DNA from: Escherichia coli
Lineage (GTDB): Bacteria > Pseudomonadota > Gammaproteobacteria > Enterobacterales > Enterobacteriaceae
Assembly: GCF_041248615.1 (NCBI RefSeq)
Contig: NZ_CP158426.1
Length of the DNA: 64,000 bases
Direction: 5' to 3' (one strand)
A program made the translations under genes and the position numbers. Shown piece by piece: positions 6,371-61,996 of the stretch. The notes below the pieces were generated by a model. That model was given only the letters and a program-made list of their open reading frames with translations. It ran no database searches and was not told where the DNA came from. Numbering within the stretch: the first letter of the stretch is position 1; each line of letters begins with the position of its first letter.

Positions 6371-7105
6371 ATGTCCAAACTCGATCTAAACGCCCTGAAC
6401 GAACTGCCGAAGGTAGATCGCATTCTGGCGCTGGCAGAAACTAACGCCGAACTGGAAAAACTGGATGCTGAAGGCCGCGTTGCCTGGGCGCTGGATAATC
6501 TGCCCGGTGAATATGTACTTTCTTCCAGTTTCGGCATTCAGGCGGCGGTGAGCCTGCATCTGGTGAATCAGATTCACCCGGATATCCCGGTGATCCTCAC
6601 CGATACGGGTTATCTGTTCCCGGAAACCTACCGCTTTATTGACGAGTTAACGGACAAACTCAAGCTCAACCTGAAAGTGTACCGCGCTACCGAAAGCGCC
6701 GCCTGGCAGGAAGCGCGCTACGGCAAACTGTGGGAGCAGGGCGTTGAAGGCATTGAAAAGTACAATGACATCAACAAAGTCGAACCGATGAACCGGGCGC
6801 TGAAAGAACTGAATGCGCAAACCTGGTTTGCTGGCCTGCGCCGTGAACAATCCGGCAGCCGCGCCAATTTACCGGTGCTGGCAATTCAGCGTGGCGTATT
6901 TAAAGTGCTGCCGATTATCGACTGGGATAACCGAACTATTTATCAGTACCTGCAAAAACATGGCCTGAAATATCACCCATTATGGGATGAAGGATATTTA
7001 TCGGTCGGTGATACCCATACAACCCGTAAATGGGAACCCGGCATGGCGGAAGAAGAAACGCGTTTCTTTGGCTTAAAAAGAGAATGTGGGTTACACGAAG
7101 GGTAA
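6371..7105 (+). CDS. cysH: phosphoadenosine phosphosulfate (PAPS) reductase
   Basis: ORF 6218..7105 is 5'-over-extended; true start [15 protein letters not shown] at 6371 (244 aa), GAGG RBS upstream; C-terminal ECGLH motif. Confidence 0.9.
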
Positions 7106-7122
7106 ATATTGCCGGATAAATT

Positions 7123-7161
7123 AAACGCCTCTGTCAGAAATGATGGGGGCGTTTTTATTTT
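7123..7161 (+). terminator. putative rho-independent terminator of cysJIH
   Basis: 7-bp stem AAACGCC/GGCGTTT followed by TTTTTATTTT, 18 nt after the cysH stop. Confidence 0.4.
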
Positions 7162-7369
7162 GCGAGCAGCATTCCTGATTTTAAACGTGAACGCCGCTGG
7201 AAGAATTATCAGGTATAGAATGGCGTTGGGTGCTTGAGGCTGTCTGGCGTTAAGCATTCGCGAGGTTCCAGATGGACAAAAGCCCCAGGCGATATTTCTA
7301 TCAACCTGAGGCCAGCGTTCGAACCTAAGCAATTCGAATGTTAGTCTCTTCTTTGCAGGGAGGCAAGAC

Positions 7370-7522
7370 ATGCTGACAAAATATGCCCTTGTGGCAATCA
7401 TCGTACTGTGTTGTACAGTACTGGGATTCACGCTGATGGTAGGCGACTCGTTGTGTGAGTTGAGTATCAGAGAACGTGGTATGGAGTTTAAGGCAGTTCT
7501 CGCTTACGAATCGAAGAAGTAG
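7370..7522 (+). CDS. hokX: Hok/Gef-family small membrane toxin (type I toxin-antitoxin)
   Basis: 50-aa [53 protein letters not shown]: hydrophobic helix plus conserved C-terminal Cys/Glu pattern typical of Hok; GGAGG RBS; below the 60-aa cutoff of the ORF track. Confidence 0.7.
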
Positions 7523-7528
7523 CCACCA

Positions 7529-7548
7529 CGCGGGGGTAAAACCCCGCG
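7529..7548 (+). terminator. GC stem-loop at 3' end of the hokX transcript
   Basis: Perfect 7-bp stem CGCGGGG/CCCCGCG with 6-nt loop immediately after the hokX stop; no strong T-run, so it may be an mRNA-stability element rather than a terminator. Confidence 0.35.
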
Positions 7549-7555
7549 TATTGAA

Positions 7556-7716
7556 TTGTGATGGTTTGGTCTCCTGCACCCTTTTTTAATTTATATTGTT
7601 TATGTGAATATTATGCCTATGTTTATTATTTATATATATTACTGATGAAAATTATTTGATTATTCATAATGTAAATATTTTATTGAACGATATATATCAC
7701 AGATAATTTTTAATAT
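7556..7716 (+). promoter_or_regulatory. strongly AT-rich cas3 upstream/promoter region (candidate H-NS-silenced region)
   Basis: About 160 bp of very AT-rich sequence directly upstream of the cas3 ATG; promoter elements not individually resolved. Confidence 0.35.
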
Positions 7717-10416
7717 ATGCGTAAATATCCTTTAAGTTTACTGAAGGATAAAAATATTGTGACTTTTTTTGATTTCTGGGGAAAAACCCGACGCGGCGAG
7801 AAAGACGGGGGCGACGACTATCACCTTCTTTGCTGGCATTCGCTGGATGTAGCCGCGATGGGCTATTTAATGGTTAAAAGCAATTGCTTCGGACTGGCTG
7901 ACTATTTTCGTCAATTAGAGATTTCTGACAAGGAACAGGCGGCTCAATTTTTCGCCTGGTTGTTGTGCTGGCACGATACTGGTAAATTTGCCCGCTCATT
8001 TCAGCAACTTTACCTGCACCCGAAACTCAGGGTTCCGGAAGGTGCTAGAAAAAATTACGAAAAAATCTCTCATTCAACGCTGGGCTACTGGTTGTGGCAT
8101 CATTATTTAAGTGAATGTCAGGAGTTACTTCCTTCCTCTTCACTCTCTCCCCGCAAACTTACACGTGTAATAGCGATGTGGATGCCCATAACTACCGGGC
8201 ATCATGGTCGCCCGCCTGACCGTATTGATGAACTGGATAATTTTCTGCCTGAAGACAAAGCTGCCGCGCGAGATTTTCTTCTTGAAATCAAACCACTGTT
8301 TCCGCTCATAGAGATCCCCGCATTCTGGGATGATGATGAGGGCATTGAACTTATAAAACACCTTTCCTGGTATATCTCTGCAACCGTCGTGCTCGCAGAC
8401 TGGACGGGTTCGTCAACGCGATTTTTTCCACGCGTCGCACACCCAATGGATATTAAAGGTTACTGGCAGAAAACTTTAGTTCAGGCTCAAAACGCCTTAA
8501 CCGTCTTTCCTCTAAAAGCAAAAGTCGCGCCTTTCACCGGAATTAATACGCTGTTTCCTTTTATTGAGAATCCGACACCGTTACAGCAAAAGGTGCTGGA
8601 TCTGGATATCAGCCAGCCAGGGCCACAGTTATTTATTCTGGAAGATGTGACTGGCGCAGGTAAAACGGAAGCGGCGCTTATCCTGGCGCACAGGTTGATG
8701 GCTGCGGGTAAAGCGCAGAGTTTGTTTTTTGGCCTGCCAACAATGGCAACGGCCAATGCCATGTACGATCGACTGGTCAAAACCTGGCTTGCTTTCTATT
8801 CGCCAGAGTCCCGCCCCAGCCTGGTGCTGGCACACAGTGCCCGAACATTAATGGACCGCTTTAATGAATCACTCTGGTCCGGTGATTTAGTCGGGTCAGA
8901 AGAACCGGATGAACAAACGTTCAGTCAGGGATGTGCGGCCTGGTTTGCCGACAGTAACAAGAAGGCGCTACTGGCTGAAATTGGCGTCGGCACGCTGGAT
9001 CAGGCGATGATGGCGGTGATGCCGTTCAAACATAATAATGTGCGGCTTCTGGGACTGAGTAACAAAATCCTGCTGGCTGATGAGATCCATGCCTGTGACG
9101 CTTACATGTCATGCATTCTTGAAGGGCTGATCGAGCGGCAGGCGCGTGGCGGAAACAGCGTCATTTTGCTTTCTGCCACGTTATCTCAACAGCAGTGCGA
9201 CAAACTCGTTGCTGCCTTTGCGCGTGGTACAGAGGGCCAGCAAGAAGCTCCGTTCCTGGAAAAGGATGATTACCCCTGGCTGACGCACGTTACGAAATCC
9301 GATGTGCATTCACACCGGGTAGCGACGCGCAAAGACGTTGAGCGTAGCGTGAGCGTGGGTTGGCTTCATAGCGAACAAGAATGTATTGCGCGTATCGAAT
9401 CGGCAGTAAGTCAGGGGAAATGCATCGCCTGGATCCGGAATTCTGTCGATGACGCTATTAAGGTTTATCGTCAGTTGCTTGCCCGCGGCGTCATTCCTGC
9501 TTCCAGCCTTTCTCTTTTTCATAGCCGCTTTGCTTTTAGCGATCGCCAGCGAATTGAAACGGAAACGCTGGCACGCTTCGGTAAAAGTTGTAGTTTACAG
9601 AGATCATCACAAGTCATTGTTTGTACACAAGTAATTGAACAAAGTGTGGATATTGACCTGGACGAAATGATCTCCGACCTGGCCCCTGTTGATTTGCTGA
9701 TCCAGCGAGCGGGGCGATTACAGCGGCATATCCGCGATATTAATGGTCAGTTAAAGCGTGACGGAAAAGACGAGCGTTCTCCTCCTGAATTGCTGATTCT
9801 GGCCCCCGTCTGGGACGACTCTCCGGGTGATGAATGGTTTGGCAGAGCCATGCGTAACAGTGCATATGTCTACCCCGATCATGGGCGAATCTGGCTGACG
9901 CAGCGTGTGCTGCGTCAGCAAGGCGCTATTCAGATGCCACACTCAGCCCGGCTTCTGATTGAATCAGTCTACGGTGAGGACGTGGTAATGGCGGAAGGGT
10001 TTGCCCGCAGCGAGCAGGAGCAAGTGGGCAAATATTACTGCGATCGCGCAATGGCTAAAAAGTTTGTCCTGAACTTCAAGCCTGGCTATGCCGCCAATAT
10101 CAACGATTACCTTCCGGAAAAGCTGTCGACACGTCTGGCGGAGGAGTCTGTTTCCCTGTGGCTGGCTACCTGTATTGCCAGTGTGGTGAAGCCTTATGCC
10201 AACGGTGCTCACGCATGGGAAATGAGCGTTGTCAGAGTGCGTCGAAGCTGGTGGAAAAAACATCGGGATGAGTTTTCTTTACTGGAAGGGGAAGCGTTCA
10301 GGCAGTGGTGCATTGAACAGCGGAAAGATCCGGAGATGGCAAACGTGATTTTAGTTACCGATGACGAAAGTTGCGGGTATTCGGCTATGGAAGGATTGAC
10401 TGGCAAGGTTGGTTGA
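7717..10416 (+). CDS. cas3: Cas3 HD-nuclease/helicase, type I-E
   Basis: 899 aa; HD region near N-terminus (LCWHDTGKF), helicase Walker A (TGAGKTEAAL) and DEIH box (LLADEIHACD); position between cysH and cse1; N-terminus unlike K-12 YgcB as I recall it. Confidence 0.9.
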   Translation: MRKYPLSLLKDKNIVTFFDFWGKTRRGEKDGGDDYHLLCWHSLDVAAMGYLMVKSNCFGLADYFRQLEISDKEQAAQFFAWLLCWHDTGKFARSFQQLYLHPKLRVPEGARKNYEKISHSTLGYWLWHHYLSECQELLPSSSLSPRKLTRVIAMWMPITTGHHGRPPDRIDELDNFLPEDKAAARDFLLEIKPLFPLIEIPAFWDDDEGIELIKHLSWYISATVVLADWTGSSTRFFPRVAHPMDIKGYWQKTLVQAQNALTVFPLKAKVAPFTGINTLFPFIENPTPLQQKVLDLDISQPGPQLFILEDVTGAGKTEAALILAHRLMAAGKAQSLFFGLPTMATANAMYDRLVKTWLAFYSPESRPSLVLAHSARTLMDRFNESLWSGDLVGSEEPDEQTFSQGCAAWFADSNKKALLAEIGVGTLDQAMMAVMPFKHNNVRLLGLSNKILLADEIHACDAYMSCILEGLIERQARGGNSVILLSATLSQQQCDKLVAAFARGTEGQQEAPFLEKDDYPWLTHVTKSDVHSHRVATRKDVERSVSVGWLHSEQECIARIESAVSQGKCIAWIRNSVDDAIKVYRQLLARGVIPASSLSLFHSRFAFSDRQRIETETLARFGKSCSLQRSSQVIVCTQVIEQSVDIDLDEMISDLAPVDLLIQRAGRLQRHIRDINGQLKRDGKDERSPPELLILAPVWDDSPGDEWFGRAMRNSAYVYPDHGRIWLTQRVLRQQGAIQMPHSARLLIESVYGEDVVMAEGFARSEQEQVGKYYCDRAMAKKFVLNFKPGYAANINDYLPEKLSTRLAEESVSLWLATCIASVVKPYANGAHAWEMSVVRVRRSWWKKHRDEFSLLEGEAFRQWCIEQRKDPEMANVILVTDDESCGYSAMEGLTGKVG

Positions 10417-10513
10417 GATGCCTGCGACAGGGCTCTCTGAATAGTTGATACACCGAAAAGGATGGAATGATGGACAACCGACCTAGGATGGTCTTTTTTA
10501 CGAGAGGATGCGT

Positions 10514-12076
10514 ATGAACTCGTTTTCACTTCTGACAACCCCGTGGTTGCCCGTTCGTTATAAAGACGGAACGACAGGCAAACTGGCGCCTGTCGATCTG
10601 GCGGATGAAAATGTTGTCGATATTGCTGCGCCACGGGCAGATCTCCAGGGAGCGGCATGGCAGTTTTTGCTGGGGCTACTACAAACCAGCTTTGCGCCAA
10701 AAGATCATCGTCGTTGGGATGATATCTGGGAAGACGGACTGGAATCTGAAAAGCTACGGGAAGCATTGCTGTCCTTAGAACACGCTTTCCAGTTTGGGCC
10801 AGATTCCCCTTCATTTATGCAGGATTTCGAGGCGCTCACAGGAGATAAAGTTCAGGTCGCTTCGCTACTGCCTGAGATTCCCGGCGCTCAAACAACGAAG
10901 TTTAATAAAGACCACTTTATCAAGCGTGGTGTAACGGAATACCTGTGCCCACATTGTTCTGCGTTAGCTCTGTTCTCCCTACAGTTAAATGCGCCGTCAG
11001 GTGGTAAAGGCTACCGCACCGGTTTACGCGGCGGTGGGCCGATGACCACTCTGATTGAATTACAGGAATATCAGGGCAATCAACAAACGCCCTTGTGGCG
11101 CAAACTGTGGCTCAATGTGATGCCGCAGGACGAAGCCGACTTACCGCTACCCAAAAAATTTGACGATCTGGTTTTCCCCTGGCTTGGCCCGACGCGTACC
11201 AGCGAACTGGCCGGTGCGGTGGTAACCGATGATCAGGTTAATAAACTCCAGGCGTACTGGGGAATGCCGCGGCGTATTCGTATTGATTTTAATACCACGA
11301 CAGTCGGCAACTGCGATATTTGCGGCGAGCAGAACGACGCGCTCCTGAGCCTGATGACGACCAAAAATTACGGCGCGAATTATGCCATGTGGCAGCATCC
11401 CTTAACGCCTTACCGTGTACCCCTTAAAGAGGGCGGCGAGTTTTACTCGGTCAAACCACAACCAGGCGGTTTAATCTGGCGCGACTGGTTAGGCCTTATC
11501 GAAACGGGTAAATCAGAAAACAATACGGAACTTCCCGCGCTGGTGGTGAAACTCTTTAATGCCAGCAGTCTCAAGCAGGCAAAAGTGGGCCTGTGGGGAT
11601 TTGGTTATGATTTTGACAACATGAAAGCGCGCTGTTGGTACGAACACCATTTTCCGCTGCTGCTCGATAAAAAAGAAGGCCAGATACCGAAGCTGCGGCT
11701 GGCTGCGCAAACGGCTTCACGGATTCTGAGTCTGTTACGGAGTGCATTGAAAGAAGCGTGGTTCTCCGATCCAAAAGGTGCACGGGGTGATTTCAGTTTT
11801 GTGGATATCGACTTCTGGAACAAAACTCAGCATCGCTTCCTGAGGTTAGTGCGCCACATTGAAGAAGGTCAGGATGCGGATGAATTACTCAGCAAATGGC
11901 AAAAGGAAATTTGGTTATTCGCGCGTCAGGATTTTGACGAGCGTGTCTTCACCAATCCATATGAGCCCGTTGATTTGAAACGCGTCATGACCGCGCGCAA
12001 GAAATATTTTACAACATCGGCGGAGAAGCAAAATGCTAAAGCCGCCAGGGAGAAAAAGCAGGAGGCTGCTGAATGA
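10514..12076 (+). CDS. casA: Cascade large subunit Cse1 (CasA/Cas8e)
   Basis: About 520 aa ORF first in the Cascade operon; ORF track starts at 10508 but the second ATG (10514) has better GAGAGG spacing. Confidence 0.8.
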   Translation: MNSFSLLTTPWLPVRYKDGTTGKLAPVDLADENVVDIAAPRADLQGAAWQFLLGLLQTSFAPKDHRRWDDIWEDGLESEKLREALLSLEHAFQFGPDSPSFMQDFEALTGDKVQVASLLPEIPGAQTTKFNKDHFIKRGVTEYLCPHCSALALFSLQLNAPSGGKGYRTGLRGGGPMTTLIELQEYQGNQQTPLWRKLWLNVMPQDEADLPLPKKFDDLVFPWLGPTRTSELAGAVVTDDQVNKLQAYWGMPRRIRIDFNTTTVGNCDICGEQNDALLSLMTTKNYGANYAMWQHPLTPYRVPLKEGGEFYSVKPQPGGLIWRDWLGLIETGKSENNTELPALVVKLFNASSLKQAKVGLWGFGYDFDNMKARCWYEHHFPLLLDKKEGQIPKLRLAAQTASRILSLLRSALKEAWFSDPKGARGDFSFVDIDFWNKTQHRFLRLVRHIEEGQDADELLSKWQKEIWLFARQDFDERVFTNPYEPVDLKRVMTARKKYFTTSAEKQNAKAAREKKQEAAE

Positions 12077-12609
12077 GTATTGTAAAAGAGGAGCACAAAG
12101 CCACGCTGCGTAAATGGCACGAAGAGTTGCAGGAAAAACGCGGCAATCGTGCCAGTCTGCGGCGTAGCACAACGGTTAATGATGTTTGTCTGTCAGAAGG
12201 GTTTCGTTCTCTGCTGATGCAGACCCACACTTTGTGGAAAATTGAAGCACAAGAGTGGCGTTTTACCGCACTGGCGCTGGTCGCCGCAGTTAGCGCCAAT
12301 GTTAAAGCTATTGATGAACGGCAGCCTTTTGCCGCGCAGCTGGCGGCGGTAATGTCGGAGGGGCGTTTTACTCGCCTGTCGGCAGTAAAAACGCCTGATG
12401 ATTTACTGCGTCAGTTACGTCGCGCGGTCAAATTATTAAATGGTTCCGTCAATCTTATCTCTTTGGCAGAAGATATTTTCCGCTGGTGCCAGGAGAGCGA
12501 CGACCTGCTCAATCATCACCGCCGCCAGCAGCGGCCAACAGAATTTATCCGTATCCGCTGGGCGCTGGAATATTACCAGGCTGGCGACGCCGATAACGAA
12601 CAAAATTAA
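12073..12609 (+). CDS. casB: Cascade small subunit Cse2 (CasB)
   Basis: 178 aa; overlaps casA stop by 4 nt; position and size fit Cse2. Confidence 0.8.
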   Translation: MSIVKEEHKATLRKWHEELQEKRGNRASLRRSTTVNDVCLSEGFRSLLMQTHTLWKIEAQEWRFTALALVAAVSANVKAIDERQPFAAQLAAVMSEGRFTRLSAVKTPDDLLRQLRRAVKLLNGSVNLISLAEDIFRWCQESDDLLNHHRRQQRPTEFIRIRWALEYYQAGDADNEQN

Positions 12610-12623
12610 TAAAGGACTATCTC

Positions 12624-13679
12624 ATGACGACATTTATTCAGCTTCATTTGTTAACCGCTTACCCTGCTGCCAACCTTAACCGTGATGACACCGGTGCGCC
12701 AAAAACTGTGGTACTGGGTGGAGCAACGCGTCTGCGCGTTTCCTCACAAAGTCTGAAACGTGCGTGGCGCACTTCTGCACTTTTTGAACAGGCACTGGCG
12801 GGCCATATTGGTATTCGCAGTGGGCGTATTGCGCGTGAGGCGGCAACTATCCTGATTGAGAAAGGCATCGAAGAGAAAAAAGCCATCGAATGGGCGGCAA
12901 AAATTGCGGATTATCTTGGGAAAGCTAAAAACGACAAAAAACCAAAAGATCCGCTCACTAACGCCGAAACTGAACAGCTAGTCCATATCAGCCCGGCAGA
13001 ATTTGACGCCGTAAAAGCGCTGGCCCATCAACTGGCCGAAGAAAAGCGCGCGCCAAAAGAGGAAGATCTCGCTTTGTTACGTAAAGATCGCATGGCGGTA
13101 GATATCGCTATGTTTGGTCGTATGCTGGCGAATAAACCCGAATTTAATGTTGAAGCCGCCTGCCAGGTCGCGCATGCATTTGGTGTCAGTGAAACGATTG
13201 TCGAAGATGATTTTTTCACCGCCGTTGATGATTTGCGCCAGGCTTCTGAAGATGCCGGTGCCGGGCATCTTGGTGAAACCGGATTCGGTTCTGCGCTGTT
13301 CTACACCTATATCTGCATCGATAAAGATCTGCTGGTCGAAAACCTCGGCGGTGACGAAGCGTTAGCTAATCAGACCTTGCGCGCCTTTACGGAAGCCGCA
13401 CTTAAAGTCTCCCCAACCGGCAAACAGAACAGCTTTGCCAGCCGTGCCTACGCCTCCTGGGCGCTGGCAGAAAAAGGCACTGAACAACCACGCTCTCTGG
13501 CGGCGGCTTTCTATGAACCCATTAATGGCACCCGGCAGTTAGATGTGGCGGTGCAGCGTATTACAACGCTTCGCGAAAATATGAATACGGTCTATGAACA
13601 GAAGACCGAATGCGCAAGCTTTGACGTGATGAACAAACAGGGAAGCATGAAGGACGTGCTGGACTTTATCTGCGCGTAA
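12624..13679 (+). CDS. casC: Cascade backbone subunit Cas7e (CasC)
   Basis: 351 aa; N-terminus MTTFIQLHLLTAYPAANLNRDDTGAPK resembles the Cas7e N-terminus. Confidence 0.85.
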   Translation: MTTFIQLHLLTAYPAANLNRDDTGAPKTVVLGGATRLRVSSQSLKRAWRTSALFEQALAGHIGIRSGRIAREAATILIEKGIEEKKAIEWAAKIADYLGKAKNDKKPKDPLTNAETEQLVHISPAEFDAVKALAHQLAEEKRAPKEEDLALLRKDRMAVDIAMFGRMLANKPEFNVEAACQVAHAFGVSETIVEDDFFTAVDDLRQASEDAGAGHLGETGFGSALFYTYICIDKDLLVENLGGDEALANQTLRAFTEAALKVSPTGKQNSFASRAYASWALAEKGTEQPRSLAAAFYEPINGTRQLDVAVQRITTLRENMNTVYEQKTECASFDVMNKQGSMKDVLDFICA

Positions 13680-13689
13680 GGGGCGGCTA

Positions 13690-14436
13690 ATGAGCCAATA
13701 TTTGATTTTTCAGCTTCATGGGCCAATGGCATCCTGGGGCGTCGATGCCCCCGGCGAAGTGCGTCATACCCATGAACTGCCTTCGCGCTCAGCATTGCTG
13801 GGGCTGCTGGCTGCCGGGGTAGGGATTCGGCGTGATGATACCGAACGATTAAACGCGTTTAACCGCCACTATTCACTGGTGGTTTGCGCCAGCCGTAACC
13901 CGCGCTGGGCACGGGATTATCACACGGTCCAGATGCCAAAAGAGGTGCGTAAAGCGCGTTATTTCAGCCGTCGCGAAGAGTTGAGCGCCCCTGATCTTCT
14001 GAGCGCGATTATCTCCCGGCGCGACTACTACACCGATGCCTGGTGGATGGTGGCGGTGGCAACAACCCCCGATGCGCCTTACAGGCTTGAACAGTTGCAG
14101 GACGGTTTACGTCATCCGGTTTTTCCGCTTTATCTGGGGCGAAAAAGTCATCCGCTGGCGTTACCACTTGCGCCGTTACTGCTCGAAGGCAACGCGTCTG
14201 ATGTCTTACGTAACGCATACCAACAGTATCAGGATAGTTTCCGCGAACTGAAAGTCTCACTCCCGAAACTTCAGGATGAATGCTGGTGGGAAGGGGAACA
14301 CGACGGCCTGGTCGCGAGCAAAATATTACGTCGCCGGGATGTTCCTTTAAATCGTCAGCAGTGGCTGTTTGGGGAACGCACCATCAATCAGGGGCCGTGG
14401 CTCAGCAAGGAGGAACCATGTACCTCTCAAGAATAA
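13690..14436 (+). CDS. casD: Cascade subunit Cas5e (CasD)
   Basis: 248 aa; N-terminus MSQYLIFQLHGPMASWG parallels K-12 CasD MRSYLILRLAGPMQAWG. Confidence 0.85.
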   Translation: MSQYLIFQLHGPMASWGVDAPGEVRHTHELPSRSALLGLLAAGVGIRRDDTERLNAFNRHYSLVVCASRNPRWARDYHTVQMPKEVRKARYFSRREELSAPDLLSAIISRRDYYTDAWWMVAVATTPDAPYRLEQLQDGLRHPVFPLYLGRKSHPLALPLAPLLLEGNASDVLRNAYQQYQDSFRELKVSLPKLQDECWWEGEHDGLVASKILRRRDVPLNRQQWLFGERTINQGPWLSKEEPCTSQE

Positions 14437-15064
14437 CCTTACATACCGGCCAGCTTTCGCCTGCGCAGTTGCTGCATCTGGTGGATCGCGGTGAATATGT
14501 AATGCATCAGTGGCTGTGGGATCTTTTTCCTGGCGGCAAAGAAAGGCAATTTCTTTATCGTCGGGAAGAACTCCAGGGGGCGTTTCGCTTTTTTGTCCTG
14601 TCGCAGGAACGCCCGGCGGAAAGTGATATTTTCACCATCGAATGCCGACCATTTGCGCCAGAGTTGCGTACCGGACAATCCCTTTGTTTCAACCTGCGGG
14701 CGAATCCAACAATTTGTAAAGCGGGCAAACGCCACGACTTGCTGATGGAGGCGAAACGGCAGGTGAGGGGGCAGGTGGAAGGAAGTGATGTCTGGTTGCA
14801 TCAACAACAGGCGGCGCTGGACTGGCTGGCAGCGCAGGGGGAAAGAAGCGGTTTTACACTACTGGATACCTCGGTCGATGCCTACCGACAACAGCAACTG
14901 CGGCGGGAAAACTCCCGGCAACTGATCCAGTTCAGTAGCGTGGATTATACGGGGATGCTTACGGTCACCGATCCTGGGTTATTTCTGCAACGTCTGAGCC
15001 AGGGGTATGGCAAAAGCCGCGCGTTCGGCTGTGGTCTGATGCTGATCAAACCCGGAGCAGAGGC

Positions 15065-15068
<4 letters not shown>
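14418..15068 (+). CDS. casE: Cas6e (CasE) pre-crRNA endoribonuclease
   Basis: ORF 14280..15068 over-extended; start placed at MYLSRITLHTGQ (14418) with AGGAGG RBS at 14409-14414; 216 aa. Confidence 0.85.
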
Positions 15069-16278
<1,210 letters not shown>

Positions 16279-16374
16279 GTTATCTGTTCTTTAAAAATAA
16301 GGAAATGTTTTAATTTAGTTGGTAGATTGTTGATGCGGAATAAATTTTTTTAAAAACAGTTATGTATGCTTAGT
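16279..16374 (+). promoter_or_regulatory. CRISPR leader
   Basis: AT-rich 96 bp between cas2 stop and first repeat; leader-proximal end of the array. Confidence 0.55.
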
Positions 16375-17074
16375 GTGTTCCCCGCGTCAGCGGGGATAAA
16401 CCGGACTCAGTTTTTCCCTGCTGACCCTCCGAAGGGTGTTCCCCGCGTCAGCGGGGATAAACCGCCATGCCGCGCCAGCTCTGCGAAACAGCCCGCGTGT
16501 TCCCCGCGTCAGCGGGGATAAACCGATCCAAAGATAGTCGCCCCGATTGCCAAATTGGTGTTCCCCGCGTCAGCGGGGATAAACCGACGGTATTGTTCAG
16601 ATCCTGGCTTGCCAACAGGTGTTCCCCGCGTCAGCGGGGATAAACCGGCGGCACTAACGTGATAATCACGATCAATTATGTGTTCCCCGCGTCAGCGGGG
16701 ATAAACCGTGACGGTCCGAAAAAAGTTGGCTGAAGAAATTGTGTTCCCCGCGTCAGCGGGGATAAACCGGTTATTGCGTTTTCCTCACCTGCGGCGAGTC
16801 CGTGTTCCCCGCGTCAGCGGGGATAAACCGCATTCCGTGCAGCGGTCTGAATAATTGCCGCGGTGTTCCCCGCGTCAGCGGGGATAAATCGAGTAACGAC
16901 GAAAAAATACAGGCACGGGCCAGGTGTTCCCCGCGTCAGCGGGGATAAACCGATCCCCGCAGGTATCGCGCAGCTATCGATCGAGTGTTCCCCGCGTCAG
17001 CGGGGATAAACCGGACGCACTGGATGCGATGATGGACATCACTTGGAGTTCCCCGCCCCTGCGGTAGAACTCCC
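16375..17074 (+). CRISPR. type I-E CRISPR array: 12 repeats (29 nt), 11 spacers (all 32 nt), 61-nt period
   Basis: Repeat GTGTTCCCCGCGTCAGCGGGGATAAACCG starting at 16375, 16436, 16497, 16558, 16619, 16680, 16741, 16802, 16863, 16924, 16985; repeat 9 has C->T at 16889; degenerate terminal repeat GAGTTCCCCGCCCCTGCGGTAGAACTCCC at 17046-17074. Confidence 0.97.
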
Positions 17075-57725: not shown

Positions 57726-58859
57726 CTACACCGGCAACGTTTTCAACAATCCAAACGCCTCTTTCATCCGATCCTCACTGACCACAAAGGCGCGAAGCTG
57801 GTCGGCATCATCAACACCGCGCGCCACCATTCCCTGGCGTTCGGTATTAATTTGCCAGCGTAAATCCTGACGCTGGGTTTCGCCTGCCAGATGCAGCGGT
57901 AATTCTGGCGTTTTGATTTTCACCAGCATCGCCGGGAGTTTCAGCGGCGTGTTATTGCCGAGAAGATTTTTTGCCAGCACCATCGCGCTAAGTTGAATCG
58001 GCTGGAGGAACGGCAATACCTGACCGTTAATTTCCGTGCAATCGCCCAGCGCATAAATATCGGCATTACTGGTTTGCAGATAACTATCGACGCAAACGCC
58101 GCGATTAATCGTCAGCCCGGCGCGTCGTGCCAGGGCGGTTTCCGGGCGCAGTCCGGTGGCGGCAATTACCGCATCCACTTCGATGCTGCGCTGGCGGTCC
58201 AGCGTTGCCAGAATGCCAGAATCCGTTTTTTCCAGCCCCTGCAACTGAGATTTTAACAGCAGATGAACGCCAATCTCCGTCAACCGATGCTGCAAGCGGC
58301 TGCTTACTTCCGGTGGCATTAACGATGCCAGAATACTGGCAGCGTTGTCGATTAGCGTGACCGCTTTGCCTGCACGACAAAAATCCATCGCCAGTTCGCT
58401 ACCAATCAAGCCACCGCCAACAATCAATACGCGTCGGGCATCCCGCAGTTGCGTTTCACAGGCGCGATACTCTTGCTGACTATTTAATGTCAGCATTAAC
58501 TCACGCCCAGGCACTGGCGGGACAAAGGCGCTGGCTCCGGTTGCCAGCACTAACTTGTCGTATTGCCACTGATTATTCTGACTTTTCACCACATGGGCTT
58601 CGGCATCGATATCCGTCACCCAGGTGTGCGGAAACAGGTGCAGATTAAACTGCTCGGCAAATTCACCCGCCGTCTGGCGGGTAAGGTCATCGGCACGTTG
58701 CCCCTGGCTGATAACATGGCTGAGATCCGGTTTGTTGTACTCATCCATGCTGTCGGCGGCAATCAGAGTTAATGGAATACTGGCGTCCTGTTTGCGAATA
58801 TTTTTCACCAGTTGGCGGGCGGCGAAGCCCGAACCAATGATCACAATGCCGTTGCTCAT
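57726..58859 (-). CDS. norW: NADH:flavorubredoxin reductase
   Basis: 377 aa; FAD motif [10 protein letters not shown]; overlaps norV stop. Confidence 0.93.
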
Positions 58860-60295
58860 TTTGCCTCCGATGCCAGTTCGTCAAAGACGTCTTTGCCGAG
58901 AGAGCATTCCGGGCACAGGAAGTTATCCGGGACTTCACTCCACGGCGTTCCTGGCGCAACGTCCTGCATTGGCTCGCCTTTTGCCGGATCGTAAATCCAC
59001 TGGCAGACGCTGCACTGCATCCGTGGGCCGAGGTCAGCCGTCGTGTTGGCAGAGGTTTCTTCTTTAACCACCGTATTCACCGTGCTCTGCGGCAGCGGCG
59101 CGAGCGCCCACTGACGGGCGATTTCGCGACCGTGTTCACGGCATAACTCCAGAGCGTCCTGGTCCGGTCGCCATTTGGCTTTCAGGCTAAGCGACATTTC
59201 GAAACCTGCATCCTGCAGGCGTGTGGAAAGACGATCCACCGCACCGCCGCTCCAGCCGTGAGAGCCGAAAGCACTGGCGCGTTTGTTACGGAAGCGTAAA
59301 CCAGTCATCTCCTCCACCAGCCCGGCGATTTTCGGCATCATCACATTATTCATCGTAGAAGTGCCGACCAGCACGCCTTTTGAGCGGAAGACATTGGTCA
59401 GGATTTCGTTTTTATCGCTTCGGGCGACGTTGAAAATTTTCACCGCCACGCGTGGGTCGGTTTCCGCAATACCCTGGGCGATAGCATCGGCCATCATGCG
59501 GGTATTATTCGACATGGTGTCGTAGAAAATGGTGATTCTGTCTTCCTGATAATCCGCCGCCCATTTCAGGTACAGCTCGACAATTTGCGTCGGGTTATCG
59601 CGCCATACCACGCCGTGAGAGGTCGCTATCATATCGACTGGTAAGTTAAAGCCCAGGATCTCGGTAATTTTCGGCGTTACCAGGCGGCTGAACGGCGTCA
59701 GGATATTGGCGTAGTAACGCTGGCACTGCTCGAAAAGCTCCGTCTGATCCACTTCATCGTTGAACAGATGCTCGTCGCAGTAGTGCTGACCGAAAGCATC
59801 GTTACTGAATAGCACCGCGTCGCCTGTCAGGTAAGTCATCATGCTGTCCGGCCAGTGCAGCATTGGCGTTTCGACAAAAATGAGCTGTTTGCCGTTGCCG
59901 ATATCCAGTGTGTCGCCAGTTTTCACCACATTAAAATTCCACTCCGGATGATGGTGATGACCATTTATCGAGTCGATAGCGTTGGCAGTACAGTAAATCG
60001 GCGTATCGGGAATTTGCGCCATCAGTTCGGTCAGCGCCCCGGCGTGGTCCTCTTCAGCATGGTTAATCACGATGTAATCGATATCCGCCAGATCGATTTC
60101 ATTACGCAGGTTCTGCACAAATTCGCGGCTGAATTTATGGTCAACGGTGTCGATCAGCACGTTTTTTTCTTCGCGGATGAGGTAGCTGTTGTAGCTGCTG
60201 CCGCGCAGCGTTTTATATTCCGTGCCGTGAAAATCACGCACTTCCCAGTCACGTTGACCAACCCAATGAATGTTATTTTTCACCACAATAGACAT
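58856..60295 (-). CDS. norV: anaerobic nitric oxide reductase flavorubredoxin
   Basis: 479 aa; metallo-beta-lactamase-like domain, flavodoxin domain, C-terminal rubredoxin CxxC...CPEC. Confidence 0.95.
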
Positions 60296-60342
60296 AGCAA
60301 CCTCAATTTATTCAGCGTGTTCTAAAAAGATGTCTTGCTAAT

Positions 60343-60358
60343 TGCAGATTGCGTGCCA
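60343..60358 (-). promoter_or_regulatory. sigma-54 promoter (-24/-12) for norVW
   Basis: Minus strand reads TGGCAC-GCAAT-CTGCA about 45 nt upstream of norV. Confidence 0.6.
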
Positions 60359-60413
60359 GTTTTTTATCTGATTGTTTTTACTCTATAAATAAAATTATGC
60401 TCATTAATGAGTA

Positions 60414-60469
60414 GTCAAAATGACTATCAATCAAATGGTCGATATGACAATATCTATAGTCAAATTGAC
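60414..60469. promoter_or_regulatory. three NorR enhancer sites (GT-N7-AC)
   Basis: GTCAAAATGAC (60414-60424), GTCGATATGAC (60438-60448), GTCAAATTGAC (60459-60469). Confidence 0.7.
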
Positions 60470-60481
60470 AGTGAGGCAAAG

Positions 60482-61996
60482 ATGAGTTTTTCCGTTGATG
60501 TGCTGGCGAATATCGCCATCGAATTGCAGCGTGGGATTGGTCATCAGGATCGTTTTCAGCGCCTGATCACCACGCTGCGTCAGGTGCTGGAGTGTGATGC
60601 CTCTGCGTTGCTACGTTATGACTCGCGGCAGTTTATTCCGCTTGCCATCGACGGGCTGGCGAAGGATGTACTCGGTAGACGCTTTGCGCTGGAAGGGCAT
60701 CCACGGCTGGAAGCGATTGCCCGCGCCGGGGACGTGGTGCGCTTTCCCGCAGACAGCGAATTGCCCGATCCCTATGACGGTTTGATTCCCGGGCAGGAGA
60801 GTCTGAAGGTTCACGCCTGCGTTGGTCTGCCATTGTTTGCCGGACAAAACCTGATCGGCGCATTGACGCTCGACGGGATGCAGCCCGATCAGTTCGATGT
60901 TTTCAGTGACGAAGAGTTACGGCTGATTGCCGCGCTGGCGGCGGGAGCGTTAAGCAATGCGTTGCTGATTGAACAACTGGAAAGTCAGAATATGCTGCCA
61001 GGCGATGCCGCGCCGTTTGAAGCGGTGAAACAGACGCAGATGATCGGTCTGTCGCCAGGTATGACGCAATTGAAAAAAGAGATTGAGATTGTGGCGGCGT
61101 CCGATCTCAACGTCCTGATCAGCGGTGAGACGGGAACCGGTAAGGAGCTGGTGGCGAAAGCGATTCATGAAGCCTCGCCACGGGCGGTGAATCCGCTGGT
61201 CTATCTCAACTGTGCCGCACTGCCGGAAAGTGTGGCGGAAAGTGAACTGTTCGGGCATGTGAAAGGAGCGTTTACTGGCGCTATCAGTAACCGCAGCGGG
61301 AAGTTTGAAATGGCGGATAACGGCACGCTGTTTCTCGATGAGATCGGCGAGTTGTCGTTGGCATTGCAGGCCAAGCTGCTGCGGGTGTTGCAGTATGGCG
61401 ATATTCAGCGCGTTGGCGATGACCGCAGTTTGCGGGTCGATGTGCGCGTGCTGGCGGCGACTAACCGTGACTTACGCGAAGAGGTACTGGCAGGGCGATT
61501 TCGCGCTGACTTGTTCCACCGCCTGAGCGTGTTTCCACTTTCAGTGCCGCCGCTGCGTGAGCGGGGCGATGATGTCATTCTGCTGGCGGGGTATTTCTGC
61601 GAGCAGTGTCGTTTGCGGCTGGGGCTCTCCCGCGTGGTATTAAGTGCCGGAGCGCGAAATTTACTGCAACACTACAATTTTCCGGGGAACGTTCGTGAAC
61701 TGGAACATGCTATTCATCGGGCGGTAGTGCTGGCGAGAGCAACCCGCAGCGGCGATGAAGTGATTCTTGAGGCGCAACATTTTGCTTTTCCTGAGGTGAC
61801 GTTGCCGCCGCCAGAAGTGGCGGCGGTGCCCGTTGTTAAGCAAAACCTGCGTGAAGCGACAGAAGCGTTCCAGCGTGAAACCATTCGTCAGGCGCTGGCG
61901 CAAAATCATCACAACTGGGCCGCCTGTGCGCGGATGCTGGAAACCGACGTCGCCAACCTGCATCGGCTGGCGAAACGTCTGGGGCTGAAGGATTAA
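60482..61996 (+). CDS. norR: NO-responsive sigma-54-dependent transcriptional regulator
   Basis: ORF 60407..61996 over-extended: it would run through the three NorR sites; start at [18 protein letters not shown] (60482) with GAGG RBS; 504 aa; GETGTGKE and GAFTGA motifs. Confidence 0.9.

What the first reader, a model, noticed from the sequence alone, without database searches (positions are those of the whole stretch)
7556..7716. Extremely AT-rich 160-bp tract directly upstream of cas3
This stretch (e.g. ttatttatatatattactgatgaaaattatttgattattcataatgtaaatattttattgaacgatatatatcac) is far more AT-rich than the surrounding genome, typical of H-NS nucleation regions that silence cas promoters in E. 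coli. Whether this divergent cas variant is silenced the same way as the K-12 set is not obvious from sequence.
Basis: partly seen in the sequence, partly recalled or inferred. Interest (0 to 1): 0.25.

Follow-up and report, generated by a model that had tools for sequence, protein, structure and literature searches.

The report
AT-rich control region before cas3

Summary
Observation confirmed, coordinates shifted. The window is E. coli cysJIH–hokX–cas3–casABCDE12–CRISPR–iap. The 161-bp stretch 7582-7742 is 16% GC, against a window mean of 53%. It is the lowest of the whole 64 kb.

- **Left edge.** Bases 7556-7589 are the 3' end of the hokX mRNA.
- **Right edge.** cas3 most likely starts at GTG 7759, not the annotated ATG 7717. 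The non-coding tract is therefore 7590-7758 (169 bp, 17% GC).
- **Identity.** This is the cas-E1 gene set and its linked intergenic element, probably "IG4" of Almendros et al. 2014. It occurs in 2774 of 5426 complete E. coli genomes and is unrelated to the K-12 (E2) sequences.
- **Conservation.** In 9 of 10 related loci from several genera, the most AT-rich 100 bp of the locus starts within 180 bp upstream of cas3. The sequences themselves do not align.
- **Architecture.** The cas3–casA gap is 97 bp with normal GC. The AT-rich, H-NS-bound K-12 cas3–casA intergenic region has no counterpart here.

Best reading: the cas3 (possibly whole-operon) promoter and 5' UTR inside an H-NS-type silencing tract. 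Promoter role is inferred from position and conservation. H-NS binding is inferred from composition only. No experimental data for E1 were found. Ordinary kind, modest interest.

The parts
7228..7385 (+). sok antitoxin RNA / 5' part of the hokX mRNA. Flanking element, not part of the tract.
   Evidence: Rfam RF01794, 111.7 bits, E = 2e-26.
7371..7523 (+). Intact hokX (Hok/Gef family) ORF of 50 aa.
   Evidence: ORF read from the sequence. Annotated as a Hok/Gef family protein in identical RefSeq genomes. K-12 lacks this ORF.
7524..7589 (+). 3' end of the hokX mRNA: a GC-rich hairpin, the fold-back segment GGTCTCCTGCACCC that pairs with the 5' end at 7228-7233, and a T-run.
   Evidence: The full-length fold pairs the 5' and 3' ends, z = -3.2. 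Homology shared by 5408 of 5426 genomes stops at about 7589. A third cas variant joins at the same point.
7590..7659 (.). Distal half of the AT-rich tract. It evolves fast and carries indels, but it stays AT-rich in the E. coli E1 alleles aligned.
   Evidence: Mean pairwise identity is 84% (minimum 70%) among 6 E. coli E1 alleles, against 96-97% for the neighbouring segments.
7660..7758 (+). Proximal half of the tract. It is non-coding but as conserved as the coding sequence. Proposed cas3 core promoter plus 5' UTR.
   Evidence: Mean identity is 96% among E. coli alleles. Identity to the window is 95% in Escherichia sp. and 98% in Pseudocitrobacter. It is non-coding because a 1-nt insertion creates an in-frame TAA in L004 and L013.
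7686..7701 (.). AACGATATATATCACA: a weak CRP-like 16-mer matching 7 of 10 positions of TGTGA-N6-TCACA, centred 65.5 bp upstream of the start codon. It overlaps the H-NS-consensus-like 10-mer at 7687-7696.
   Evidence: The best CRP-like match falls 63.5-72.5 bp upstream of the cas3 start in 8 of 10 related loci. It is individually significant only in K. grimontii and Phytobacter, P about 0.004. CACAGA is invariant in the alignment. The H-NS 10-mer is not enriched: 51 matches against 41 expected.
7702..7727 (+). Candidate -10 elements: GATAAT at 7702-7707, paired with TTTATT at 7679-7684, and TAAATA at 7722-7727, which lies 20 nt after TCACA.
   Evidence: PWM scan, 8.3 bits for TTTATT-17-GATAAT. 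The TCACA-to-(-10-like) spacing of 18-20 nt is shared with E. albertii, I. alba and K. grimontii (read). No transcription start data exist, so this is inference.
7744..7761 (+). Shine-Dalgarno AAGGA (7744-7748) and the probable true cas3 start codon GTG (7759-7761).
   Evidence: Sequence. Homologues in other genera begin at the aligned GTG or TTG, and E. albertii has an in-frame stop with no alternative start upstream. Frame-breaking insertion in L004 and L013.
7759..10416 (+). cas3 of the cas-E1 variant, 885 aa from the GTG. RefSeq annotates 7717-10416, 899 aa.
   Evidence: It is 29% identical to K-12 Cas3. The published E1-specific primer cas3E1-R (PMC3903273) matches 7800-7819.
10417..10513 (+). 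Short cas3-casA spacer of 97 bp and 48.5% GC, with no AT-rich island.
   Evidence: There is no significant RNA structure, z = -0.03, and no consensus promoter or terminator. The only candidate is a weak TTGATA-15-AATGAT. This short form is present in 2425 of 2448 genomes that match.
10514..16278 (+). casA-casB-casC-casD-casE-cas1-cas2 (E1), 52% GC.
16279..16375 (+). CRISPR leader. Its 100-bp minimum, 21% GC at 16268-16367, is the second most AT-rich 100-bp stretch of the window.
16376..17072 (+). CRISPR array: 12 repeats with a 61-bp period. The last repeat is degenerate.

Best explanation
Bases 7590-7758 are the regulatory region of the cas-E1 version of the E. coli type I-E cas genes. This is probably the intergenic element Almendros et al. 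2014 called IG4.

The proximal ~100 bp (7660-7758) hold the cas3 promoter and a short 5' UTR, with a Shine-Dalgarno AAGGA and the start codon GTG 7759. The next gene, casA, follows cas3 after only 97 bp of normal-GC DNA. The same promoter may therefore feed the whole cas3-to-cas2 set.

The tract is 17% GC and dense in TpA steps. That makes it a strong predicted binding and nucleation site for H-NS (and StpA), which would occlude RNA polymerase and keep the system quiet unless it is counter-silenced. A conserved TCACA-containing site centred about 65 bp upstream of the start codon may be a CRP-type activator site.

Shown directly:
- the composition of the tract;
- its non-coding status;
- its boundaries;
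- its linkage to the E1 cassette;
- conservation of the proximal half;
- conservation of AT-richness across genera;
- absence of a counterpart to the K-12 AT-rich cas3-casA intergenic region.

Inferred only: promoter position, H-NS occupancy, silencing, co-transcription with casA, and CRP involvement.
For: - **Composition.** This is the lowest-GC stretch of 64 kb (16% in 161 bp, z about -6.4) and has the highest TpA count. It is more AT-rich than the K-12 cas3-casA region that the literature reports as H-NS-bound.
- **Location.** It lies directly upstream of cas3. Its left edge coincides with the homology breakpoint at 7589/7590, so it belongs to the cas cassette and not to the flank.
- **Non-coding, yet conserved.** The proximal half is 96% identical among E. 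coli alleles, the same as the coding sequence, and 95% and 98% identical to the window in two other taxa. A frame-breaking indel shows it is not coding.
- **AT-richness conserved across genera.** In 9 of 10 E1-clade loci (Escherichia, Pseudocitrobacter, Intestinirhabdus, Citrobacter, Salmonella, Klebsiella, Phytobacter), the locus-wide minimum-GC 100-bp window starts within 180 bp upstream of cas3. The z-scores run from -3.5 to -5.6, although the sequences do not align.
- **Gene spacing.** The cas3-casA gap is 21-177 bp in all but one (K. spallanzanii, about 500 bp) of the 9 related loci that include casA. It is 97 bp here and shows no terminator.
- **Promoter-like sites.** Their density is the highest in the window, 21 per 200 bp against a mean of 2. 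From my own knowledge, this is typical of H-NS-bound AT-rich DNA.
- **Precedent.** H-NS represses cas3 transcription in K-12 in stationary phase (PMC4782391), in S. Typhi (as summarised in PMC8039139) and in K. pneumoniae NTUH-K2044 (PMC4987720).
Against: - No experimental H-NS occupancy or hns-mutant expression data for any E1 strain were found.
- The AT island is only 169 bp and is flanked by DNA of about 46-50% GC. H-NS-bound regions in O157:H7 Sakai average 1643 bp (PMC4764244), so spreading and stable silencing are not assured.
- The E1 cas genes have host-like GC (50-52%), unlike K-12 E2 (45-46%).
- The H-NS consensus 10-mer match is not above chance.
- No single strong sigma-70 promoter stands out. 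The built-in scan finds none on the + strand in the tract, and the PWM scan gives only mediocre sites on both strands.
- A weak promoter-like site exists in the cas3-casA spacer, so casA may have its own promoter.
- K. indica has an E1-type cas3 70 bp after cysH with no AT island, so the tract is not indispensable.
Confidence: 0.6

Rival explanations
1. The tract is an ordinary AT-rich promoter, UP-element and 5' UTR region that is not meaningfully controlled by H-NS. On this reading cas-E1 is regulated mainly by other factors, such as CRP or growth phase, as the K-12 cas3 promoter largely is.
For: The K-12 cas3 promoter is CRP-activated and only slightly affected by hns deletion in a reporter assay (PMC7019758). 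The best CRP-like matches cluster 63.5-72.5 bp upstream of the start in 8 of 10 related loci. The AT island is short and its flanks have normal GC.
Against: A GC of 13-17% over 100-170 bp goes far beyond ordinary intergenic AT-richness in this window, where the next lowest 161-bp window is 28.6%. The E. coli CRP-like site is poor, 7 of 10, shuffle P about 0.5. H-NS represses cas3 in three other enterobacterial type I-E systems.
Confidence: 0.2
2. The tract is a functionless junction or spacer left at the border of the exchanged cas cassette, and it is AT-rich through relaxed selection and mutation bias.
For: It starts exactly at the cassette breakpoint. Its distal 70 bp are highly variable and carry indels. 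IS elements insert just upstream in some genomes.
Against: The proximal 99 bp are as conserved as the coding sequence. The AT-rich minimum sits immediately upstream of cas3 in 9 of 10 loci from several genera that have different upstream neighbours and spacing. cas3 needs a promoter and a ribosome-binding site, and this is the only non-coding DNA available between the hokX mRNA 3' end, with its T-run, and cas3.
Confidence: 0.1
3. Part of the tract, 7717-7758, encodes a 14-residue N-terminal extension of Cas3, as RefSeq annotates.
For: The ATG at 7717 opens the longest ORF. RefSeq uses it in many genomes.
Against: There is no Shine-Dalgarno sequence before 7717, while AAGGA lies 10 nt before GTG 7759. 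Homologues start at the aligned GTG or TTG. E. albertii has an in-frame TAA and no alternative start upstream. L004 and L013 carry a 1-nt insertion that puts the ATG out of frame and into a TAA.
Confidence: 0.07

Closest known systems
IG4, the intergenic element linked to the cas-E1 genes at the E. coli CRISPR-I locus (Almendros et al. 2014, mBio, PMC3903273)
   Same: Same chromosomal position, between hok/sok and the E1-type cas3. The hok/sok system is present, as that paper reports for all non-E2 strains. The E1-specific primer from the paper matches the window's cas3 at 7800-7819. The element is found only with E1.
   Different: The paper catalogues the element for evolutionary reconstruction. 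It gives no composition, promoter or H-NS analysis. I could not see its figure, so the identification with IG4 rests on the text description only.
The K-12 (cas-E2) cas3-casA intergenic region that carries the casA promoter, silenced by H-NS and relieved by LeuO (Pul et al. 2010 and Westra et al. 2010, as cited in PMC4782391)
   Same: An AT-rich non-coding island (29.5% GC, 100-bp minimum 18%) upstream of cas genes in a type I-E locus at the same chromosomal site. It works as an H-NS nucleation region over a weak promoter.
   Different: It lies between cas3 and casA, not upstream of cas3. It shares no sequence homology with the tract. In E1 the equivalent gap is 97 bp with 48.5% GC. The E1 tract is more AT-rich and shorter.
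The K-12 cas3 promoter region (Yang et al. 2020, PMC7019758; Majsec et al. 2016, PMC4782391)
   Same: Same functional position, immediately upstream of cas3 and downstream of the cysH / sokX flank.
   Different: The sequence is unrelated and has 34% GC. hokX is deleted in K-12. It is CRP-activated through a footprinted site, and the H-NS effect is weak or confined to stationary phase.
H-NS-repressed cas3 units of S. Typhi (Medina-Aparicio et al. 2017, via PMC8039139) and K. pneumoniae NTUH-K2044 (Lin et al. 2016, PMC4987720)
   Same: Enterobacterial type I-E systems in which cas3 mRNA rises when hns is removed.
   Different: The cas variants and gene arrangements differ. S. Typhi cas3 is described as divergent from the cas operon. 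The K. pneumoniae NTUH-K2044 system has cas genes flanked by two arrays and prefers a different PAM (TTN). Their sequences were not compared here.

Membership tests
H-NS (xenogeneic-silencing) target region | AT content far above the genome average over about 100 bp or more. | tested here: met
   17.2% GC over 169 bp and 13% over 100 bp, against 53% for the window. It ranks first among all windows.
H-NS (xenogeneic-silencing) target region | Flexible TpA-step-rich sequence, or a match to the high-affinity motif (tCGATAAATT / TCGATATATT). | tested here: inconclusive
   The TpA count is the highest in the window, z about 8.8. The 8-of-10 motif match at 7687-7696 is no better than chance: 51 matches against 41 expected window-wide.
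H-NS (xenogeneic-silencing) target region | Associated with horizontally acquired or variant DNA. | tested here: met
   The tract is specific to the E1 cassette and starts at the cassette breakpoint. It is present in 2774 of 5426 genomes, while the flank is present in 5408.
H-NS (xenogeneic-silencing) target region | H-NS occupancy in vivo or in vitro (ChIP, EMSA, footprint). | not testable with these tools
   No data for an E1 strain in the literature searched.
H-NS (xenogeneic-silencing) target region | Derepression of the downstream gene in an hns mutant. | not testable with these tools
   Transcriptome data for an EDL933 hns mutant exist (PMC9263587), but the held supplements contain no cas gene entries.
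cas-E1 / IG4 arrangement of the E. coli CRISPR-I locus | An E1-type cas3, matched by the published primer cas3E1-R, downstream of cysH with hok/sok present. | tested here: met
   The reverse complement of the primer equals window 7800-7819. hok ORF and sok RNA are present. Cas3 is 29% identical to K-12 E2.
K-12 cas3-casA intergenic casA-promoter region | An AT-rich intergenic region of about 400 bp between cas3 and casA, homologous to the K-12 sequence. | tested here: not met
   The E1 gap is 97 bp with 48.5% GC. The tract shows no homology to the K-12 region.
CRP-dependent cas3 promoter | A CRP site (TGTGA-N6-TCACA) at an activating distance from the promoter. | tested here: inconclusive
   The E. 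coli site matches 7 of 10 (shuffle P about 0.5). Relatives match 8-9 of 10 at the same distance, with P about 0.004 in two genera. The transcription start is unknown.
hok/sok toxin-antitoxin locus (applies to 7228-7589 only) | A sok RNA model match, a Hok ORF, and pairing between the 5' and 3' ends of the mRNA. | tested here: met
   RF01794 at 111.7 bits. The ORF at 7371-7523 is annotated as Hok/Gef. The fold pairs 7228-7233 with the 3' end, z = -3.2.

The most novel reading that the evidence does not exclude
In the majority cas-E1 variant the regulatory logic differs from the K-12 textbook case. There is no separate casA control region. cas3 through cas2 form one operon driven from a single ultra-AT-rich tract upstream of cas3. 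That tract combines H-NS silencing with a conserved activator site, CRP-like and centred about 65 bp upstream of the start codon. The nuclease Cas3 and the Cascade proteins would then be switched on together, rather than Cas3 being separately limiting as in K-12.
Probability: 0.35. Interest if true: 0.45.

Novelty: new member of a known kind. Interest (0 to 1): 0.3.

Why it matters
Almost everything known about E. coli CRISPR-Cas regulation comes from K-12, which carries the minority E2 gene set (about 1184 of 5426 complete genomes). That includes H-NS, LeuO, CRP, and Cas3 as the limiting factor.

The E1 set seen here is in 2774 of 5426 genomes, including O157:H7. Its regulatory DNA is in a different place and has an unrelated sequence.

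If the tract is the single H-NS-silenced switch for cas3 and Cascade together, conclusions about why E. coli CRISPR is "silent" need re-testing in E1 strains. The same applies to Cas3 being limiting and to how the endogenous system might be awakened, for example for self-targeting antimicrobials.

The step itself is incremental. It would be a further example of an AT-rich, probably H-NS-controlled cas promoter.

Tried and rejected
- **Built-in promoter scan.** It found no consensus promoter on the + strand in the tract.
- **Own PWM scan.** It gave many mediocre hits on both strands and no clear winner, so no transcription start is claimed.
- **H-NS high-affinity 10-mer search.** Matches were not enriched, so this was dropped as evidence.
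- **Rfam search of 7000-8000.** It found only sok and no RNA family in the tract.
- **BLAST of the tract.** I compared it with the K-12 cas3-casA intergenic region, the K-12 cas3 upstream region, the third-variant intergenic region, the CRISPR leader and the rest of the window. It found only chance 10-11-mers, so the tract is not a relocated copy of any of these.
- **Small ORFs in the tract.** One example is ATG 7614, giving about 10 codons. It is not conserved in the O157 allele (read) and was rejected.
- **RNA fold of the cas3-casA spacer.** There is no significant structure and no terminator.
- **Literature.** None found a study of H-NS, LeuO or transcription starts for cas-E1. Supplements of the EDL933 hns-mutant modulon paper and the Sakai H-NS ChIP paper held no cas entries. 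Medina-Aparicio et al. 2017 is not held.
- **K. pneumoniae NTUH-K2044 as the closest experimental analogue.** Its system has a different arrangement and a different preferred PAM, so it is cited only as precedent.

Full report
**What is there.** The window is an E. coli chromosome segment. Its gene order is cysJ, cysI, cysH, an intact hokX/sok toxin-antitoxin locus, cas3, casA-B-C-D-E, cas1, cas2, a 12-repeat CRISPR array, iap and cysDNC.

The AT-rich tract is real and extreme:
- The 161-bp window 7582-7742 is 16.1% GC, against a window mean of 53.1% (sd 5.8%).
- That is the lowest value in all 64 kb; the next lowest non-overlapping 161-bp window is 28.6%.
- The lowest 100 bp, 7619-7718, is 13% GC.
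- The tract holds the highest count of TpA steps of any 169-bp window: 33, against a mean of 6.6.
- The second most AT-rich 100 bp in the window, 16268-16367 at 21% GC, lies mostly in the CRISPR leader.

On the left, 7556-7589 is the 3' end of the hokX mRNA. The segment GGTCTCCTGCACCC pairs with the mRNA 5' end at 7228-7233 in a fold with z = -3.2. The stretch 7300-7589 is conserved in 5408 of 5426 complete E. coli genomes whether or not they carry these cas genes. Homology to genomes with other cas content stops at about 7589. A third cas variant is joined at exactly the same base. The tract therefore belongs to the cas cassette and not to the flank.

On the right, the annotated cas3 start ATG 7717 is very probably wrong:
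- Homologues in Escherichia albertii, Intestinirhabdus, Citrobacter and Salmonella start at the GTG aligned with 7759, and in Phytobacter and Klebsiella indica at an aligned TTG.
- E. albertii has an in-frame TAA and no alternative start upstream.
- Escherichia sp. and Pseudocitrobacter carry a 1-nt insertion between the two codons that puts the ATG into an in-frame TAA.
- AAGGA lies 10 nt before GTG 7759, and nothing resembling a Shine-Dalgarno sequence precedes 7717.

The non-coding element is therefore 7590-7758: 169 bp, 17.2% GC.

**Which cas genes.** Cas3 here is only 29% identical to K-12 Cas3. The published E1-specific primer cas3E1-R matches 7800-7819. This is the cas-E1 variant of Almendros et al. 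2014 (PMC3903273). That paper states that E1 is always linked to an intergenic element called IG4, E2 (K-12) to IG5, and that hok/sok is present in all strains except E2 carriers. The tract fits IG4 by position, although I could not see the figure.

Among 5426 complete E. coli genomes:
- the tract plus the cas3 5' end is present in 2774, at 89-100% identity, including O157:H7;
- the K-12-type upstream region is present in about 1184;
- a third variant is present in 25.

The tract has no detectable similarity to the K-12 cas3 upstream region, the K-12 cas3-casA intergenic region, the third-variant intergenic region or the CRISPR leader.

**Internal anatomy.** The tract has two halves.

The distal 70 bp, 7590-7659, evolve fast. 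Mean pairwise identity among six E. coli alleles is 84% (minimum 70%), with indels, yet they stay AT-rich.

The proximal 99 bp, 7660-7758, are 96% identical. That equals the adjoining coding sequence, even though this half is non-coding. I read the proximal half as core promoter plus 5' UTR.

Promoter-like sites are denser here than anywhere else in the window: 21 per 200 bp against a mean of 2. None is strong. The two candidates are TTTATT-17-GATAAT (7679-7707) and TAAATA (7722-7727).

A TCACA motif at 7697-7701 is invariant within Escherichia. The best match to the CRP core TGTGA-N6-TCACA falls 63.5-72.5 bp upstream of the cas3 start in 8 of 10 related loci. It is strong in Klebsiella grimontii and Phytobacter (9 of 10, P about 0.004) but weak in E. 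coli (7 of 10, P about 0.5). This is a lead only. It is notable because the unrelated K-12 cas3 promoter is CRP-activated (PMC7019758).

**Comparative evidence for function.** Ten E1-clade loci from several genera were compared. In nine, the lowest-GC 100-bp window of the whole 4-9 kb locus starts within 180 bp upstream of cas3. The values are 13-28% GC, with z from -3.5 to -5.6. Beyond Escherichia and Pseudocitrobacter the sequences cannot be aligned. Klebsiella indica is the exception: its cas3 follows cysH after 70 bp. Composition is thus conserved where sequence is not, which argues for a composition-dependent function.

**Architecture differs from K-12.** In K-12 the 414-bp cas3-casA intergenic region is 29.5% GC, with a 100-bp minimum of 18%. 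It carries the H-NS-silenced, LeuO-relieved casA promoter (literature cited in PMC4782391; composition). In E1 that gap is 97 bp and 48.5% GC. It has no significant structure, no terminator and only a weak promoter-like site. The short form is present in 2425 of 2448 matching genomes. Eight of the nine related loci that include casA have gaps of 21-177 bp, and Klebsiella spallanzanii has about 500 bp. The E1 genes themselves are 50-52% GC, against 45-46% for E2. The E1 locus thus has two small AT islands at its two ends and nothing AT-rich in between.

**Interpretation.** The best-supported reading is that 7590-7758 is the cas3 promoter and 5' UTR, and possibly serves the whole cas3-to-cas2 operon. 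It sits in a tract whose composition strongly predicts H-NS/StpA binding.

Precedent comes from three other enterobacterial type I-E systems in which H-NS lowers cas3 mRNA:
- K-12, eight-fold, in stationary phase only (PMC4782391);
- S. Typhi (PMC8039139);
- K. pneumoniae NTUH-K2044 (PMC4987720).

There are real caveats:
- The evidence for H-NS is composition only.
- The one consensus-like 10-mer is not above chance.
- The island is short compared with typical H-NS-bound regions, which average 1643 bp in Sakai (PMC4764244).
- Its flanks have normal GC.
- I found no ChIP, hns-mutant or transcription-start data for any E1 strain.

Its comparison with K-12 holds for composition but not for position or homology.

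**Verdict.** This is a genuine and striking compositional feature. It can be explained as a further example of a known kind: an AT-rich, probably H-NS-controlled cas promoter region. The element had already been catalogued as a sequence element, but it is functionally unstudied. Its main value is to flag that the majority E. coli cas variant has a regulatory layout different from the K-12 model.

Noticed in passing
window 7717-7761: The RefSeq-style cas3 start, ATG 7717 (899 aa), is probably 14 codons too long. Comparative evidence points to GTG 7759 (885 aa), preceded by an AAGGA Shine-Dalgarno sequence.
   Followed up: yes
window 10417-10513; L002 13118-13566: The E1 cas3-casA gap is only 97 bp in nearly all genomes. 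Strain 135 is otherwise almost identical but has a 449-bp gap. The extra ~350 bp includes a degenerate CRISPR repeat in reverse orientation (TTATCCCCGTTGACACGGGGAAC).
   Followed up: partly
L003 4287-7594 (E. coli C3728): A third type I-E cas variant occupies the same cysH-hokX / iap site. Its Cas3 is 44% and its CasA 47% identical to E1. Its cas3 is inverted and divergent from casA, with a 610-bp intergenic region containing two solitary CRISPR-like repeats. It is present in 25 of 5426 complete E. coli genomes, all at 99% identity or more. The divergent cas3 layout matches the one described for S. Typhi.
   Followed up: partly
L021 1218-2330 (E. coli MRSN346595); equivalent to about window 7533: An IS4-like IS421 element is inserted between hokX and the AT tract in some E1 genomes. 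About 500 genomes have the tract but lack contiguity with hokX (2768 against 2261). This could alter transcription into cas3.
   Followed up: partly
window 7228-7589 versus L001 13221-13330: hokX is intact here (50-aa ORF, full hok mRNA fold, strong sok match). K-12 keeps only the sokX side: its E2 cassette replaces everything from the hokX start codon onward.
   Followed up: yes
L007 2964-3034 (Klebsiella indica): An E1-type cas3 begins only 70 bp after cysH and has no AT-rich island. This is the single exception among 10 related loci, and it may be transcribed by read-through from cysH.
   Followed up: no
L012 (MAG labelled Collinsella sp.): A 7-kb contig assigned to a Collinsella (Actinobacteria) metagenome bin carries a cas3 97% identical to the E. 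coli E1 gene. This is most likely a binning contaminant.
   Followed up: no
window 60305-60465: This is the second most AT-rich 161-bp stretch of the window (28.6% GC). It spans the gap between divergent ORFs at 58856-60295 (-) and 60407-61996 (+) and runs about 60 bp into the second ORF. It was not examined.
   Followed up: no
window 7686-7701 and the aligned sites in L005, L006, L009, L010 and L014: The best CRP-core-like match lies at a nearly constant distance, 63.5-72.5 bp upstream of the cas3 start, across genera whose upstream regions otherwise do not align. It is followed 18-20 nt later by a -10-like hexamer in four of the genera.
   Followed up: partly
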